Source: Arenicellales bacterium (lineage in GTDB: Bacteria > Pseudomonadota > Gammaproteobacteria > Arenicellales > JAJDZL01). From it: DNA of 64,000 nucleotides. A program made the translations under genes and the position numbers. The notes beneath the pieces are model-generated. The model was not told the origin of the DNA. It was given only the letters and a program-made list of their open reading frames with translations, and searched no databases. Of this stretch, positions 38,950 to 43,192 are shown piece by piece. Position 1 is the stretch's first letter. Each line of letters begins with the position of its first letter. The stretch is taken from the NCBI GenBank assembly GCA_965220725.1, contig OZ244840.1, positions 2,560,552 to 2,624,551 of the forward strand. The letters are read 5' to 3'.

Positions 38950-39095
38950 GTTGCGGAAGTATATCGCACGCGTAAAACACTGATATTGAATTTCAGACTC
39001 AGAGACGGTTAAACAGACTTGATCACCTTATATTGAGAGCGCCATCGGGTCATCTCTTTGGCAGCGGAGGTGACTCAGGTGCTCAAAAAGGAGTT

Positions 39096-39410
39096 TTATT
39101 TCGGATGATCCGAAAAAGGATTCGGGCGTTGGGATTCTCTGGACGGAAAATCATCAAGATTTACACCGCGGGGCATGTTTTCAACCAGCCATTGTCCCAA
39201 CGGTTGCCCCGTACTTCTGTGCTGTTCAATTGGCTGCCTCAAGGTTCGGTGCGTCTCCCATTCGCTTGCGGACATTACAATGAACTGACGTCTCTTTCCG
39301 ATCCGTTGTGGACCCTCTTTCTCGGCAAGTCGCAAAATTTCAGACAAACGCGCTTTGGCTTCCGCGACAGTCCAGATTCGGGGAGTGTGCTTTTCTGGAT
39401 AGCTGGTCAT
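39096..39410 (-). CDS. Phd/YefM-type (VapB-like) type II antitoxin, no cognate toxin present
   Basis: IWTVAEAKARLSEILRLAEKEGPQRI..FIVMSASEWE is the typical N-terminal antitoxin fold sequence. The 146 bp downstream, before mtaD, contain no PIN/toxin ORF. Confidence 0.7.
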   Translation of the reverse strand: MTSYPEKHTPRIWTVAEAKARLSEILRLAEKEGPQRIGKRRQFIVMSASEWETHRTLRQPIEQHRSTGQPLGQWLVENMPRGVNLDDFPSRESQRPNPFSDHPK

Positions 39411-39762
39411 ATTTTTCCAAGTTTTCTCGTTTTCATTGCTGTCGGCTATTTTACTGCGGATTGGATTGGTTTGAAATTATGCGGCGATTGCACGTTTACA
39501 CGGACCAAACACTTGTGAATCTATTTTGCTGATGTACAGATGACAGCGAATTGATGGGGCAGGTATTTGCATTGAATTCGCAGTGATGTTCGATGGCTAT
39601 TGATATTTCTAACTTTCGATTCTGGGCTGGATAACATGCTGTCAATGTGCATCTTGTCAATTTTGAACATGAGCCGACTGAATGCGAATTTGGGCCATAA
39701 TTCACAACCTGAAAAACGACAGAATTATTGCAATATCGTGTCAATTCGAGTAACATAAAGAG

Positions 39763-39815
39763 CAATAGAGCCGTCACGCCTCTTAACAATGCGCAACCTT
39801 GGCGGCTATTTTTTT
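39763..39815 (+). ncRNA. candidate ~50-nt structured RNA, module 1 (promoter-hairpin-U tract)
   Basis: TTGCAA (39728-39733), a 17-nt spacer, then TAACAT (39751-39756). The hairpin AGCCGTCA...TGGCGGCT spans 39769-39807 with an inner CGC/GCG helix, followed by A+T7 at 39808-39815. The predicted TSS is inferred, not observed. Confidence 0.35.
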
Positions 39816-39817
39816 GA

Positions 39818-39958
39818 ATGCCAGTGGCTGAAACTTTCAATGGAGTGGAGTTTGTCTGTGAACGGCAAATGCAAGATCTCGCGGACAGAGGGAAAATTGT
39901 TGATGACCCTGAAAAAAAGCGACACGAAATTATTGCAATATCGTGTCAATTCGAGTAA
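39818..39958 (+). CDS. 46-codon mini-ORF paralogous to the Abi N-terminus (copy 1); translation doubtful
   Basis: My translation is MPVAETFNGVEFVCERQMQDLADRGKIVDDPEKKRHEIIAISCQFE. About half of its first 33 residues are identical to the start of the Abi protein, MAETFNEIALSYEQQLQHLKNRGIIVDDDD. No Shine-Dalgarno sequence. Confidence 0.3.
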   Translation: MPVAETFNGVEFVCERQMQDLADRGKIVDDPEKKRHEIIAISCQFE

Positions 39959-39967
39959 CATAGAGAG

Positions 39968-40020
39968 TAATAGAGCCGTCACGCCTCTTAACAATGCGCA
40001 ACCTTGGCGGCTATTTTTTT
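39968..40020 (+). ncRNA. candidate structured RNA, module 2
   Basis: Same elements as module 1 shifted by +205 bp. The hairpin plus T tract at 39974-40020 is identical to module 1. Confidence 0.35.
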
Positions 40021-40022
40021 GA

Positions 40023-40163
40023 ATGCCAGTGGTTGAAACTTTCAATGGAATGGAGTTTGCTTGTGAACGGCAAATGCAAGATCTCAAGGACAGAGGGATA
40101 ATTGTTGATGACCCTGAAAAAAAGCGATACGAAATTATTGCAATCGCGTATCAATTCGAGTAA
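40023..40163 (+). CDS. 46-codon mini-ORF (copy 2); translation doubtful
   Basis: Translates to MPVVETFNGMEFACERQMQDLKDRGIIVDDPEKKRYEIIAIAYQFE, with the same frame and stop position as copy 1. No Shine-Dalgarno sequence. Confidence 0.3.
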   Translation: MPVVETFNGMEFACERQMQDLKDRGIIVDDPEKKRYEIIAIAYQFE

Positions 40164-40172
40164 CATAAAGAG

Positions 40173-40225
40173 CAATAGAGCCGTCACGCCTCTTAACAAT
40201 GCGCAACCTTGGCGGCTATTTTTTT
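40173..40225 (+). ncRNA. candidate structured RNA, module 3
   Basis: Same elements as module 1 shifted by +410 bp. The hairpin plus T tract at 40179-40225 is identical. Confidence 0.35.
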
Positions 40226-40227
40226 GA

Positions 40228-40368
40228 ATGCCAGTGGTTGAAACTTTCAATGGAATGGAGTTTGCCTGTGAACGGCAAATGCAAGATCTCAAGGACAGAG
40301 GGATAATTGTTGATGACCCTGAAAAAAAGCGATACGAAATTATTGCAATCGCGTATCAATTCGAGTAA
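40228..40368 (+). CDS. 46-codon mini-ORF (copy 3); translation doubtful
   Basis: Same peptide as copy 2, with one synonymous difference (GCT to GCC). Confidence 0.3.
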   Translation: MPVVETFNGMEFACERQMQDLKDRGIIVDDPEKKRYEIIAIAYQFE

Positions 40369-40377
40369 CATAAGAAG

Positions 40378-40430
40378 CAATAGAGCCGTCACGCCTCTTA
40401 ACAATGCGCAACCTTGGCGGCTATTTTTTT
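40378..40430 (+). ncRNA. candidate structured RNA / leader-attenuator, module 4 (immediately 5' of abi)
   Basis: TTGCAA at 40343-40348 and TAACAT at 40366-40371. The hairpin plus T7 at 40384-40430 is identical to the other modules and is followed by a GGAG RBS and the ATG at 40440. Confidence 0.35.
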
Positions 40431-40439
40431 GGAGTATCA

Positions 40440-41348
40440 ATGGCTGAAACCTTCAATGAAATAGCGCTTTCCTACGAACAGCAATTGCAGCATCTCAAGA
40501 ACAGAGGAATAATTGTTGATGATGATGATTCTGCATTGTGTAGTCTGAGAACTATCAGTTATTTCCGTATAAACGCCTATTTGTATCCCTTCCGCCACAA
40601 AGTGCAAAAGGATGCGCACTCCGAGCAGTTTATCCCAGGAACTAGACTTAGCGACGCGATTAATCTTCACGAGTTCGATCGTCTTTTGCGGTTAGCGGTT
40701 ATGGATGCTATAGAGCGTTTTGAAGTATGTGTACGAGCACTATTGGCATATAGAATCGCACATTCGTATGGAGTTTTCGGATACACGAATGCAGCGAATT
40801 TTTACCCGGACTTTGATCATTCGACTTGGCAAAGTAAACTGGAAAAAGAGATACATCGTCGGTCCAAAGAAGGCTTCATCGGCCGATTCAAGAATAAATA
40901 TACCGACTATCCCAAATTGCCAATTTGGATGGCGACGGAAGTAATGTCATTCGGTAGTTTATCCATCTGCTTCAATGGACTCAAAATCGACGATAAGCGA
41001 TCAATAGCTTCCAATTTTTCTCTCCCTTACAAGAGACTCCAAAGTTGGTTGCATTTGCTTGTATATATCCGCAATATCTGTTCACATCACGACCGGCTAT
41101 GGAACCGAAGTCTCTCAATTCGATCAATTGTGCCAAGAGATACAAATTGGAACCCACCAATTACACCTCGGAATGACAGGGTATTCTTCGTGCTTCTGGT
41201 TTTAAGGCATTTGCTTCAGTTTGTGCGCGGTGTCGATGACTGGAAGAACTGGTGTGATGAACTAATTTACTCTATATCCGAAGATAGCAAACTACTCAAA
41301 GCAATGGCGGTTCCAGAAAACTGGATTGAGCATCCCTTGTGGAAGTAA
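40440..41348 (+). CDS. Abi_2 family (AbiD/AbiF-like) abortive-infection protein, HEPN-type
   Basis: 302 aa. GGAG RBS 5 nt upstream of the ATG at 40440. The N-terminal ...QQLQHLKNRGIIVDD...ISYFRINAY and the motif YIRNICSHHDRLWNR (R-x4-H) are characteristic of Abi_2/HEPN. The track ORF start 40404 lies inside the hairpin module. Confidence 0.75.
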   Translation: MAETFNEIALSYEQQLQHLKNRGIIVDDDDSALCSLRTISYFRINAYLYPFRHKVQKDAHSEQFIPGTRLSDAINLHEFDRLLRLAVMDAIERFEVCVRALLAYRIAHSYGVFGYTNAANFYPDFDHSTWQSKLEKEIHRRSKEGFIGRFKNKYTDYPKLPIWMATEVMSFGSLSICFNGLKIDDKRSIASNFSLPYKRLQSWLHLLVYIRNICSHHDRLWNRSLSIRSIVPRDTNWNPPITPRNDRVFFVLLVLRHLLQFVRGVDDWKNWCDELIYSISEDSKLLKAMAVPENWIEHPLWK

Positions 41349-41539
41349 TTCAGAAGACAGTCTGGTTTAATGAGGTTGACTCTAAATGGTAAATTCTTGG
41401 ACTCTGAGGTATGAGTAAGACAAGTACGCGAACTGAAATGGAGGCTGTCGAAATGCAGGAAATGCCGATTGAGTCACGCACTCAGGTGCATTAGAATTGA
41501 TCAACTAAATCCACCTTACGATCTGAGGTTCAAGGGACA

Positions 41540-42147
41540 ATGAACGAAACACATACTACAGCAAATGAGAAAGCCTCCCGACCAGCCACCTATCAGGATG
41601 TGATTGACGCACCTATGAACATGGTAGCGGAAATCGTCGATGGTGAGCTACATACCCATACGAGACCCGCTCCGCCACATTTACTTGCCCAATCTGCGCT
41701 TGGGATGCTAATCGGGCATCCTATGATCTCGAAAGCGGTAAACCCGGCGGTTGGATGCTTCTTTACGAGCCCGAAATCCATCTGGGAGAGAATGTTGTGG
41801 TGCCGAACAATGCAGGATGGCGTCTCATTCGAATGCCTGCGCTTCCCGAAACACCGTTTTTCACACTGGCTCCAGACTGGGTCTGCGAGGTGCTATCGCC
41901 CGCAACGCGCGATCTTGACCTAGACGGCAAGCGGGCGGTTTATGCGCGGGCGGGTATTGACCACATGTGGTTGGTCGATCCGGAGGCGAAGTCGTTGGAG
42001 GCATTCGAGTTGCGCGATGGCAATTGGGTTTTGCTCGACTCAATATTCGATGATGTACCAGTTTCGTTGCCACCCTTTGAGGCGGTCAGTTTTAATCTCG
42101 GAGATTTGTGGAAAATTGCGCCACGGAATAACACACGAACAAGTTGA
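41540..42147 (+). pseudogene. Uma2/DUF820 family putative endonuclease, frameshifted
   Basis: ORFs 41540..41923 and 41755..42147 together align along the full length of the intact paralog at 42536..43192. The frame changes near 41712-41722, between ...LIGHP and YDLESGKPGGWMLLYEPEIHLGEN, consistent with one missing base. Confidence 0.7.
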
Positions 42148-42535: not shown

Positions 42536-43192
42536 ATGTCCAAGAAACACATCTCAGAGGATGAAGCCTCATCTCGTCCTGAAATCAATCAAGATGTTAT
42601 TGATACGCCTTCCCACTTGGTGGCGGAATTAATTGACGGCAGGCTTTATACTCGCTCGAGACCTGCTTCCCGGCACGCCTTTGCTGAAACGGCACTTGCC
42701 AGCATTCTCAATCCGCCTTTACATTTCAGTCGTGGTGGCCCGGGCGGCTGGTGGATACTCTTTGAACCTGAACTCCAACTGGGTGAAAACATTTTGGTAC
42801 CGGATTTAGCAGGATGGCGGCGCCAGCGCATGTCTCAACTTCCAGATATTGATGAAACCTATATCGTTCCAGACTGGATTTGTGAGGTATTGTCGCCTTC
42901 CACACTAAGTTTTGATCTTGGCCGCAAGAGTGACATTTATGCAAGAGCGGGTGTCGATTACATGTGGTTGGTCGACCCAAACACATACTCGCTGGAAGCG
43001 TTCAAACTGCAAGGTTCAGACTGGGAATTGATTGACTCGCTATACGGCGATGTACCTGTTTCTTTACCTCCTTTTGAGGAAATCAGTTTCGACTTGGGTG
43101 ACTTGTGGTTGCGTACCGTTCATGAAGACTTGCCGGGCATGTTGTTCGCTGAACCTCAAATCGAGCAGATTGGAACATCAACGCAGATGTAG
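42536..43192 (+). CDS. Uma2/DUF820 family putative endonuclease
   Basis: The core PDWICEVLSPST...D..K...YARAGVDYMWLVDP is typical of the Uma2 PD-(D/E)XK-like family. 218 aa. Confidence 0.7.
   Translation: MSKKHISEDEASSRPEINQDVIDTPSHLVAELIDGRLYTRSRPASRHAFAETALASILNPPLHFSRGGPGGWWILFEPELQLGENILVPDLAGWRRQRMSQLPDIDETYIVPDWICEVLSPSTLSFDLGRKSDIYARAGVDYMWLVDPNTYSLEAFKLQGSDWELIDSLYGDVPVSLPPFEEISFDLGDLWLRTVHEDLPGMLFAEPQIEQIGTSTQM

What the first reader, a model, noticed from the sequence alone, without database searches (positions are those of the whole stretch)
39818..40368. Three 46-codon mini-ORFs that are diverged paralogs of the Abi protein N-terminus
Each of modules 1-3 is followed by an ATG-initiated 46-codon frame (39818-39958, 40023-40163, 40228-40368). 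Each frame ends at the same TAA, which overlaps the next module's -10 box. My translations (for example MPVVETFNGMEFACERQMQDLKDRGIIVDDPEKKRYEIIAIAYQFE) align with the Abi start MAETFNEIALSYEQQLQHLKNRGIIVDDDD at about half the positions. The DNA is about 70% identical over the first ~90 nt and then diverges completely. So the repeat unit arose by duplicating the promoter, leader and first ~30 codons of the gene. The mini-ORF copies are much closer to each other than to the real gene, which implies an old duplication followed by later amplification rather than a trivial recent artefact. They lack a Shine-Dalgarno sequence, whereas the real gene has GGAG. Differences between copies 1 and 2 are mostly non-synonymous (A/V, V/M, V/A, A/K, K/I, H/Y, SC/AY). 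Both points argue against a conserved peptide and for an RNA-level or purely structural role. An N-terminal decoy or dominant-negative peptide remains possible.
Basis: partly seen in the sequence, partly recalled or inferred. Interest (0 to 1): 0.55.

Follow-up and report, generated by a model that had tools for sequence, protein, structure and literature searches.

The report
Toxin-gene stubs in duplicated antitoxin modules
The three 46-codon frames are real but are most likely dead copies of the first 28 codons of an AbiF toxin gene, carried along when a 205-bp promoter plus antitoxin-RNA module was duplicated in tandem; the working part of each module is the RNA hairpin, not the mini-ORF.

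Summary
Three 46-codon ORFs sit at the stated coordinates. Their codons 3-30 are homologous to codons 1-28 of the downstream Abi gene: 76-80% DNA identity over 83 nt, and a protein z-score of 13-17 against shuffles. Similarity stops exactly at a tandem-duplication junction.

The locus is an AbiF/AbiFr type III toxin-antitoxin system. The toxin is an Abi_2/HEPN protein (TM 0.89 to PbAbiF, PDB 8VZ6). It is preceded by four 205-bp modules. Each module carries a promoter, an Rfam abiF RNA hairpin (RF03085, above the gathering score) and a U7 tract.

The mini-ORFs look like passengers:
- There is no Shine-Dalgarno sequence, and the homologous start is ATG->GTG.
- dN/dS between copies is about 1.1-1.6.
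- Neutral simulations reproduce both the open frame (about 50% of runs) and the residual family likeness (p about 0.2).
- The RNA has no excess structure.
- No similar protein turned up in the 5.8-billion-cluster search.
- None of 81 other AbiF loci has a clear N-terminal stub.

By contrast, the hairpin and U-tract are invariant in all copies. Two sister-strain contigs carry three modules instead of four, so the array is still changing in copy number.

Best reading: antitoxin-gene amplification, with toxin 5' relics as spacers. This is a modestly new variant of a known system.

The parts
39709..40522 (+). Array of four tandem 205-bp modules (M1-M4). The last module runs into codon 28 of abiF.
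   Evidence: TRF: period 205, 4.0 copies, 93% matches. In-register listing of the modules.
39728..39756 (+). M1 promoter-like site: TTGCAA, 17-nt spacer, TAACAT. The same site recurs at 39933-39961, 40138-40166 and 40343-40371.
   Evidence: Aligns with the TTGAAx / TATAAT boxes of related AbiF loci. The hexamers are invariant in all four modules, while the spacer carries 3 substitutions. At 8/12 matches it falls below the consensus scanner's threshold.
39770..39815 (+). M1 abiF RNA hairpin (39770-39807) plus A-U7 tract: the predicted AbiFr antitoxin RNA and intrinsic terminator.
   Evidence: Rfam RF03085 scores 40.2 bits against a gathering score of 37. My own covariance model scores 50.1 bits. 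The hairpin appears in both the MFE and the centroid fold.
39975..40020 (+). M2 abiF hairpin plus U-tract.
   Evidence: Identical to M1.
40180..40225 (+). M3 abiF hairpin plus U-tract.
   Evidence: Identical to M1.
40385..40430 (+). M4 abiF hairpin plus U-tract, directly upstream of the live gene.
   Evidence: Identical to M1.
39818..39958 (+). Mini-ORF 1 (46 aa). 39824-39906 is the relic of abiF codons 1-28; 39907-39958 is the junction plus the next promoter read in frame.
   Evidence: Relative to the sister strain it carries three private nonsynonymous-only changes, at 39881, 39882 and 39894.
40023..40163 (+). Mini-ORF 2 (46 aa). The relic part is 40029-40111.
40228..40368 (+). Mini-ORF 3 (46 aa). 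The relic part is 40234-40316. It differs from mini-ORF 2 by 1 synonymous nt.
39921..39947 (.). Inverted repeat with 11-nt arms centred on the -35 of M2. It recurs at 40126-40152 and 40331-40357 with a compensatory C/G -> T/A change. It lies inside the tails of the mini-ORFs.
   Evidence: The codon changes H36Y and C43Y of the mini-ORF are the two paired positions 39923 and 39945.
40431..40434 (+). Shine-Dalgarno GGAG of the live abiF gene. Modules 1-3 lack it.
40440..41348 (+). abiF toxin gene (302 aa; Abi_2/HEPN; RNxxxH motif at residues 211-216, i.e. 41070-41087).
   Evidence: Pfam Abi_2, E=1.5e-51. PADLOC AbiD, E=1e-69. PDB 8VZ6 PbAbiF, E=1.5e-40 by sequence. AlphaFold model with pLDDT 93.5; Foldseek TM 0.89 to 8vz6_A. 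Invariant R211/N212/H216.

Best explanation
The locus is an AbiF/AbiFr type III toxin-antitoxin (abortive-infection) system whose antitoxin gene has been amplified.

An ancestral 205-bp segment ran from just upstream of the promoter, through the AbiFr hairpin and its U-tract, to codon 28 of abiF. It was duplicated in tandem, and unequal crossing-over later raised it to four copies. Each module is an autonomous small-RNA gene: promoter, a ~55-nt hairpin RNA, and a hairpin+U7 terminator. abiF itself can only be transcribed by read-through of at least the last terminator. Extra modules should therefore raise antitoxin RNA roughly in proportion to copy number while adding little toxin mRNA (inferred).

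The three mini-ORFs are the truncated 5' stubs of abiF that happened to lie inside the duplicated segment. Each is read on through the junction into the next promoter until a TAA in the -10 box. They are decaying neutrally, are probably not translated, and serve at most as spacers.

Shown: the homology, the junction, the RNA-family membership, the copy-number polymorphism and the lack of coding constraint. Inferred: the transcription pattern, the dosage effect and the non-translation.
For: System identity:
- The toxin matches Abi_2/HEPN and AbiD in PADLOC, and matches PbAbiF 8VZ6 by sequence and by fold.
- Four RF03085 hits lie above the gathering score.
- AbiF plus an upstream ncRNA has been shown experimentally to be a type III TA (PMC12373285; reviews PMC12737573 and PMC13064643).

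Duplication anatomy:
- 205-bp period.
- Homology to the gene ends at ...GTTGATGA, and the other side of the junction matches the sequence upstream of module 1.
- The relic is closer to the resident gene (16/27 aa, 66/83 nt) than to any of 33 homologues (at most 13/27 aa; at most 48/83 nt among the 7 relatives compared at DNA level).

Passenger status of the mini-ORFs:
- No SD, and the homologous start is GTG.
- NG86 omega is 1.1-1.55 between copies and 0.46-0.78 against the gene, a comparison that includes the constrained gene branch.
- All 3 differences from the sister strain are nonsynonymous, including I->K at a position that is hydrophobic across the family.
- In neutral simulations 47-52% of sequences acquire a stop. 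The relics' family-profile score lies inside the neutral distribution (p about 0.2).
- No similar protein was found among 5.8 billion clusters, and the exact peptides are absent from the collection.
- The relic RNA folds no better than shuffles.
- None of 81 other AbiF loci has a stub with z>3.7.
- The retained 28 residues form only a coil, one helix and a turn of a 302-aa fold.

Constraint lies elsewhere: there are 0 differences in the 46-nt hairpin plus U-tract in all 4 copies here and all 3 in the sister strain, against 8.75% in the relics (P about 0.015).

Dynamics:
- Sister-strain contigs L082 and L083 have 3 modules.
- The variant pattern across modules is mosaic.

Other AbiF lineages carry independent multi-module arrays (L064 x3; L076, L016 and L005 x2), so amplification of the antitoxin module recurs.
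Against: - There are no expression data, so promoters, termination and non-translation are all inferred from sequence. The consensus scanner called neither these promoters (8/12 matches) nor these terminators (the loop exceeds its limit).
- All five relic frames examined (3 here, 2 in the sister strain) are still open. With about 50% expected per lineage and shared ancestry this is weak evidence, but it does not exclude translation. An in-frame ATG follows a U-rich tract that could support SD-independent initiation.
- The coding tests rest on only 27 codons and a handful of substitutions.
- Modules 1-3 keep a 'TGCC' after the U-tract that is conserved in relatives but missing before the live gene. 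A simple duplicate-and-decay model does not predict this.
Confidence: 0.8

Rival explanations
1. The mini-ORFs are translated into 46-aa peptides that mimic the AbiF N-terminus. These would act as a protein-level decoy or dominant-negative regulator, for example by interfering with folding, dimerisation or a partner of the toxin.
For: All relic frames are open in both strains. An in-frame ATG is present. The family-invariant residues Q15, L19 and G23, and the near-invariant R22, are retained in the relics.
Against: - No SD, and the homologous ATG is changed to GTG.
- Omega is about 1.1-1.6 between copies, and the strain-specific changes are all nonsynonymous, including I->K in the conserved RG(I/L)x(I/V) stretch.
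- Retention of the conserved residues and of the open frame is reproduced by neutral simulation.
- No homologous small proteins were found anywhere, and there is no clear stub in 81 other AbiF loci.
- The fragment is only a coil plus one helix plus a turn, followed by 16 residues read from promoter DNA.
- The ORF lies downstream of a terminator, so only read-through RNA carries it.
Confidence: 0.05
2. The relic segment works at the RNA or DNA level. On read-through transcripts it could mimic the 5' end of the abiF mRNA, as a decoy substrate or binding platform for AbiF. Alternatively it could be selected as a spacer of fixed length that keeps each terminator and the next promoter or operator independent.
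For: The period is exactly 205 bp in all units and in both strains. An inverted repeat over the next -35, partly inside the mini-ORF tail, shows one compensatory change. AbiF is reported to process its ncRNA (review PMC12737573).
Against: - The relic is the fastest-evolving part of the module: 8.75% against 0% in the hairpin.
- Its predicted folds are not better than shuffles and differ between copies.
- Independent arrays in L064 and L076 work with 99- and 116-nt periods and have no relic.
- A constant period is expected from recent unequal crossing-over alone.
Confidence: 0.1
3. Same end state, different origin. The stub is what remains of a once-complete second abiF system (whole-system tandem duplication or a recombined-in relative). 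That system was later deleted from codon 28 to just upstream of the next promoter, so the stub diverged for some time as a working gene.
For: - Omega of relic versus gene is below 1 (0.46-0.78) with dS about 0.33-0.43.
- Modules 1-3 keep the clade-typical 'TGCC' after the U-tract, which the live gene's leader lacks.
- Adjacent abiF paralogues are reported to be common (PMC12373285).
Against: - An omega below 1 is expected anyway, because one of the two branches is the live gene.
- The relic shares lineage-specific residues (ETFN, RGIIVDD) with the resident gene only.
- This model needs two events where one suffices.
- No second abiF was seen in the sister-strain contigs.
Confidence: 0.15

Closest known systems
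AbiF/AbiFr type III toxin-antitoxin (PbAbiF, PDB 8VZ6; Zilberzwige-Tal et al. 2025, as cited in PMC12737573 and PMC13064643)
   Same: The toxin is an Abi_2/HEPN protein with the RNxxxH motif and the same fold (TM 0.89). A cis-encoded hairpin ncRNA of Rfam family abiF lies directly upstream on the same strand.
   Different: Here there are four hairpin genes instead of one. They are 205 bp apart, each has its own promoter-like site and U-tract, and they are separated by relics of the toxin's own 5' end.
C. difficile AbiFCd/RCd22 (Saunier et al. 2025, PMC12373285)
   Same: More than one abiF motif sits upstream of abiF. A terminator between antitoxin and toxin sets the RNA:mRNA ratio. The authors explicitly discuss motif duplication as a step towards arrays.
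   Different: RCd22 carries two motifs 19 nt apart in one transcript from one promoter. Here the motifs appear to be separate transcription units, and the spacing DNA derives from the toxin gene.
ToxIN / AbiQ / CptIN / TenpIN type III TA antitoxin arrays
   Same: Tandem direct repeats encode the antitoxin RNA upstream of an endoribonuclease toxin, with a terminator in between.
   Different: Those repeats are 34-50 nt, contiguous, transcribed as one precursor and cut by the toxin. The toxin fold is also unrelated (ToxN/Kid-like, not HEPN).
Truncated 5' gene fragments (pseudogene stubs) left by tandem segmental duplication
   Same: There is a homologous 5' part, an abrupt loss of similarity at a junction, loss of translation signals and neutral substitution patterns.
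   Different: Nothing essential differs. The unusual point is only that the stub travels with a functional small-RNA gene and has been co-amplified.

Membership tests
AbiD/AbiF (Pfam Abi_2, HEPN) toxin | Abi_2 domain above the curated threshold | tested here: met
   PF07751, 175.7 bits against a cut-off of 25.6. PADLOC AbiD, E=1.1e-69.
AbiD/AbiF (Pfam Abi_2, HEPN) toxin | HEPN catalytic R-x4-H motif | tested here: met
   R211, N212 and H216 (IRNICSHH) are invariant across 34 homologues. They align with the RNSCCHH stretch of 8VZ6.
AbiD/AbiF (Pfam Abi_2, HEPN) toxin | Fold of PbAbiF | tested here: met
   AlphaFold model with pLDDT 93.5. Foldseek against 8vz6_A: E=1.9e-17, TM 0.89/0.90.
AbiD/AbiF (Pfam Abi_2, HEPN) toxin | RNase toxicity neutralised by the upstream RNA | not testable with these tools
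   Needs expression assays.
abiF RNA (Rfam RF03085) / AbiFr antitoxin | Covariance-model score at or above the gathering score | tested here: met
   Four hits of 40.2 bits against a gathering score of 37.
abiF RNA (Rfam RF03085) / AbiFr antitoxin | Located directly upstream of an Abi_2 gene on the same strand | tested here: met
   The proximal hairpin ends 18 nt before the ATG. In 56 of 81 other loci the motif lies upstream on the same strand, mostly ending about 20-45 nt before the gene.
abiF RNA (Rfam RF03085) / AbiFr antitoxin | Hairpin supported by covariation | tested here: met
   6 of 9 pairs show double-sided changes and 99.7% of cells are paired. Caveat: the sequences were picked with a filter that required pairing, so the paired percentage is partly by construction.
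Type III TA antitoxin array (ToxI-like) | Tandem repeats encoding the antitoxin RNA upstream of the toxin, with a terminator in between | tested here: met
   Four tandem units. Each has a hairpin followed by A-U7. The simple terminator scanner misses them because the loop is longer than 8 nt.
Type III TA antitoxin array (ToxI-like) | Short contiguous repeats transcribed as one precursor and cut into units by the toxin | tested here: not met
   The units are 205 bp, each with its own promoter-like site and U-tract. Whether the toxin processes the RNA cannot be tested here.
Translated small-protein gene | Ribosome-binding site and start codon | tested here: not met
   An ATG is present, but there is no GGAG/AGGA-type SD in the 8 nt between the U-tract and the GTG. 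The live gene has GGAG.
Translated small-protein gene | Purifying selection or conservation of the peptide | tested here: not met
   Omega 1.1-1.55 between copies. Neutral simulation p about 0.2. No homologues. No clear counterpart in 81 loci. Power is low: 27 codons.
CRISPR array | Short repeats separated by unique spacers, with adjacent cas genes | tested here: not met
   The 'spacers' are 167 nt and nearly identical to each other. No Rfam CRISPR repeat family matched in the window. The adjacent ORFs checked are Abi_2, PhdYefM-like and Uma2.

The most novel reading that the evidence does not exclude
The array could be a natural intermediate between a single-ncRNA AbiF toxin-antitoxin and a repeat-spacer array. 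In that reading, read-through transcripts carrying AbiFr hairpins separated by 167-nt segments copied from the effector's own mRNA 5' end are bound or processed by AbiF. The self-derived 'spacers', as RNA mimics of the abiF leader or as N-terminal peptides, would then tune toxin activity or expression.
Probability: 0.06. Interest if true: 0.7.

Novelty: new variant of a known kind. Interest (0 to 1): 0.3.

Why it matters
AbiF/AbiFr has recently been proposed as the ancestor of Cas13, and duplication of the abiF motif has been suggested as a step towards arrays (PMC12373285). This locus shows such amplification happening:
- It has four autonomous antitoxin modules, the highest count among the roughly 70 motif-positive AbiF loci surveyed here.
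- Copy number differs between strains.
- There are signs of recombination between units.
- The duplication breakpoint lies inside the toxin gene.

The locus is a convenient natural series (3 versus 4 copies) for testing how antitoxin dosage sets the trigger threshold of an abortive-infection system.

For annotation, it is a warning in two ways. The 46-codon frames should not be called as genes. The database start of this AbiF, 'MRNLGGYFF...', lies inside the RNA hairpin.

Tried and rejected
- The exact-pattern scan of JGI metagenome contigs with the gene-start 20-mer returned only an unrelated chance hit (L084).
- The look-up of encoding contigs could not place the 100%-identical protein P0001. 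The nearest AbiF relatives are gammaproteobacterial MAGs.
- The word-index search with the mini-ORF peptide found no candidates.
- Rfam at the gathering threshold detected the motif in only 6 of 20 related loci. A relaxed regular expression gave about 1 false hit per 10 kb and was discarded. It was replaced by a covariance model.
- The 442-bp repeats upstream of L050 do not contain the motif and were set aside.
- ORFs in other frames and on the minus strand of the array (77 and 93 aa, longer than the mini-ORFs) have no Pfam match. They are treated as by-products of the repeat.
- I tested whether the translation-initiation region of the relics is more diverged than the rest. It has about 5 differences in 12 aligned positions, against an expected 20%. 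My hand-computed binomial p is about 0.07, which is not significant, so no claim of selection against translation is made.
- A foreign AbiF as donor of the relic was rejected, because the relic is closest to the resident gene.
Full report
**What is in the sequence.** Between 39709 and 40522 the window holds a 205-bp unit repeated four times head to tail (TRF: period 205, 4.0 copies, 93% matches). The last unit runs into a 302-codon gene at 40440-41348. Their stop TAA is the first half of TAACAT. In an alignment with twelve related loci, TAACAT lines up with a conserved TATAAT, and TTGCAA 17 nt upstream lines up with TTGAAx. So each mini-ORF ends in the -10 box of the next module, as claimed.

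**Is the similarity to the Abi N-terminus real?** Yes.
- The homologous register puts the GTG at mini-ORF codon 3 opposite the gene's ATG at 40440. Over the next 83 nt, 63 (copy 1) or 66 (copies 2 and 3) bases match, i.e. 76-80%. The best ungapped match of shuffled queries anywhere in the gene is 39 at most.
- At protein level the local score is 74-89 against a shuffle mean of 24 (sd 3.8), giving z = 13-17.
- Similarity ends abruptly after ...ATTGTTGATGA, and the following 52 nt match at 11 positions. The sequence after the break (CCCTGAAAAAAAGCGA...ATTATTGCAAT) is instead homologous to the sequence just upstream of module 1 (39709 CCTGAAAAACGACAGAATTATTGCAAT). This is the signature of a tandem duplication whose unit ran from about 20 nt upstream of the -35 to codon 28 of the gene.
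- The relic is closer to the resident gene (16/27 residues, 66/83 nt) than to any of 33 homologues (at most 13/27 residues; at most 48/83 nt among the 7 relatives compared at DNA level). It shares the lineage-specific ETFN and RGIIVDD strings with the resident gene only. It therefore derives from this gene's own lineage.

**What the locus is.**
- The gene product matches Pfam Abi_2 (E=1.5e-51) and PADLOC AbiD (E=1.1e-69). It also matches the solved PbAbiF-ncRNA complex 8VZ6 by sequence (E=1.5e-40).
- An AlphaFold model (pLDDT 93.5) superposes on 8vz6_A with TM 0.89.
- The HEPN RNxxxH residues (R211, N212, H216) are invariant in 34 homologues.
- Each module contains a 38-nt hairpin that scores above the gathering threshold of Rfam family abiF (RF03085: 40.2 bits against 37), at 39770, 39975, 40180 and 40385. 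Each hairpin is followed by A-U7.
- AbiF with its upstream ncRNA has been shown to be a type III toxin-antitoxin system in which the RNA blocks the HEPN RNase. In C. difficile, a terminator between the RNA and the toxin gene controls their ratio (PMC12373285; reviews PMC12737573 and PMC13064643).
- The hairpin is extremely conserved. It is base-for-base identical in L002, whose protein is only 54% identical.

**Do the mini-ORFs look like genes?** No test supports it.
- They lack a Shine-Dalgarno sequence (U-tract-GAATGCCAGTG), whereas the live gene has U-tract-GGAGTATCAATG. The ancestral ATG is GTG in all relics.
- Nei-Gojobori omega is 1.1-1.55 between copies 1 and 2. Against the gene it is 0.46-0.78, a comparison that includes the constrained gene branch.
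- I simulated neutral decay from the gene's first 83 nt with the observed number of substitutions. A stop arises in 47-52% of runs, so an open frame is unremarkable. The relics' score against a position-specific profile of the family N-terminus (14.6 and 20.5) lies within the simulated distribution: about 20% of simulations score at least as high.
- The 16 C-terminal codons are junction and promoter DNA read in frame.
- Neither peptide is in the 15-billion-protein collection, and the word-index search found no relative.
- The module also contains longer ORFs in other frames and on the other strand (77 and 93 aa) with no Pfam match. This shows how easily repeats generate ORFs.
- In the structure model the retained 28 residues are a coil, helix 12-21 and the RG turn. 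The cut falls at the start of helix 29-38, so the stub is not a domain.

**Does the relic RNA look functional?** No. A whole module folds no better than shuffles (z=+0.5). The mini-ORF stretches alone give z=-0.6 and +0.6, with different predicted folds in copies 1 and 2. The only element present in both the MFE and centroid structures is the abiF hairpin.

The relic is also the fastest-changing part of the unit. Between modules 1 and 2 there are 7 differences in 80 nt of relic, but none in the 46 nt of hairpin plus U-tract, and none in either promoter hexamer. The chance of zero differences at the relic's rate is about 0.015.

**Comparison between strains.** The protein cluster has a second member (1 aa different) on two ENA contigs, L082 and L083, with the same gene neighbourhood. 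These contigs carry three modules, not four.
- The unit missing from L082 and L083 corresponds to a crossover between window modules 2 and 3.
- Their first relic differs from the window's at three positions (39881, 39882, 39894). All three are nonsynonymous (K->A and I->K).
- The variants among modules are mosaic. The promoter spacer groups M1 with M2 and M3 with M4. The leader groups M1 with M3. The relic groups M2 with M3. This indicates recombination or gene conversion within the array.
Relic versus gene gives dS about 0.33-0.43, relic 1 versus relic 2 about 0.06-0.08, and relic 2 versus relic 3 a single base.

**How general is this?** I fetched 80 AbiF loci from species-representative genomes and one more encoding contig (L001), and built a covariance model from 34 hairpins (pair counts).
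- The motif is found on the gene's strand upstream of 56 of these 81 loci. It is nearly always single and mostly ends about 20-45 nt before the start codon.
- Four loci have more than one copy: L064 (three, 99-nt period), L076 (two, 116 nt), L016 (two) and L005 (two). Each copy has its own promoter-like boxes and a T-rich tail.
- Fifteen motif-positive viral contigs all have one copy.
- A six-frame search for N-terminal stubs around all 81 loci gave nothing above z=3.7, against z=14-19 for the window and its sister contigs.
- The one possible second case is L005. Its distal module is homologous from the -10 box through the Shine-Dalgarno sequence, and is then followed by KPFFSFDDQQNIL..., which weakly resembles its AbiF N-terminus KPPLTFDQQLDLL (1% of shuffles score as high).

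So amplification of the antitoxin module recurs, but inclusion of the toxin's 5' end is an accident of where the breakpoint fell.

**Mechanism proposed.** Each module is a small-RNA gene. Transcripts start a few bases after TAACAT and mostly end at the hairpin plus U-tract, giving a ~55-nt AbiFr. abiF mRNA arises only by read-through. Upstream promoters contribute progressively less, because their transcripts must pass more terminators. More modules therefore mean more antitoxin per toxin, and unequal crossing-over between modules lets this ratio change quickly. The relics ride along. These steps are inferred from sequence and from the published behaviour of AbiF systems; no expression data are available here.

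**Open points.**
- Modules 1-3 keep a 'TGCC' after the U-tract that is typical of relatives but absent before the live gene. This may mean that the relic modules preserve an older leader, that the stub came from a once-complete second system, or nothing at all.
- An 11-nt-arm inverted repeat centred on the -35 of modules 2-4 carries a compensatory C/G to T/A change. That change accounts for the H/Y and C/Y 'amino-acid differences' in the mini-ORF tail. It could be an operator.

**Verdict.** The mini-ORFs are best explained as non-functional 5' relics of abiF inside an amplified AbiFr antitoxin array. The system is known. The four-module, relic-spaced, copy-number-polymorphic architecture is a modest new variant.

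Noticed in passing
window 39000-42000 compared with L082: The AbiF island (PhdYefM-like ORF, array, abiF, first Uma2 gene) differs from the sister strain at only ~0.5% of positions, against 2.5-4% in the flanks. abiF has 2/909 differences; the neighbouring amidohydrolase has 51/1338. The array and abiF (about 39500-41500) have ~42% G+C against ~49-50% in the flanks. This suggests recent exchange or acquisition of the island.
   Followed up: partly
window 41540-42147 (+): The first Uma2-family gene is split into two overlapping ORFs by a 1-nt deletion at 41714. The sister strain has an intact 202-aa gene (L082 6137-6745), so this copy is a pseudogene in the window. A second, intact Uma2 gene follows at 42536-43192.
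   Followed up: yes
window 40404-40439: The database protein for this gene (P0001, 314 aa) starts at an ATG inside the abiF hairpin (MRNLGGYFFGVS-). The same 'MRNLGGFF' extension appears in homologues P0002 and P0009. This is probably a recurrent start-site mis-annotation caused by the conserved ATGCGCAACCTTGG of the RNA.
   Followed up: partly
window 39921-39947, 40126-40152, 40331-40357: An inverted repeat (11-nt arms, 5-nt gap) is centred on the -35 hexamer of modules 2-4, with one compensatory change between module 2 and modules 3/4. Module 1 has a defective left arm. It may be an operator.
   Followed up: partly
window 39096-39410 (-): A 104-aa ORF with a sub-threshold PhdYefM antitoxin match (26.4 bits against a cut-off of 29.8) lies next to the array. 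No obvious toxin partner lies downstream of it.
   Followed up: no
L002 2934-2971 compared with window 40385-40422: The 38-nt abiF hairpin is 100% identical between loci whose AbiF proteins are only 54% identical. The RNA is far more conserved than its protein partner.
   Followed up: partly
L064 52-298; L076 2822-2984; L016 2713-2952; L005 2674-2973: These are independent tandem arrays of 2-3 abiF hairpin modules in unrelated MAGs (Kiritimatiellae, Victivallales, Allochromatium, Magnetococcales). Each copy has its own promoter-like boxes. L005 may carry a much older N-terminal relic.
   Followed up: partly
window 39768-40424 and relatives (alignment A2): The -10 box of the window's modules (TAACAT) is weaker than the TATAAT or TATACT of most single-module relatives. 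Several weaker promoters might replace one strong one.
   Followed up: no
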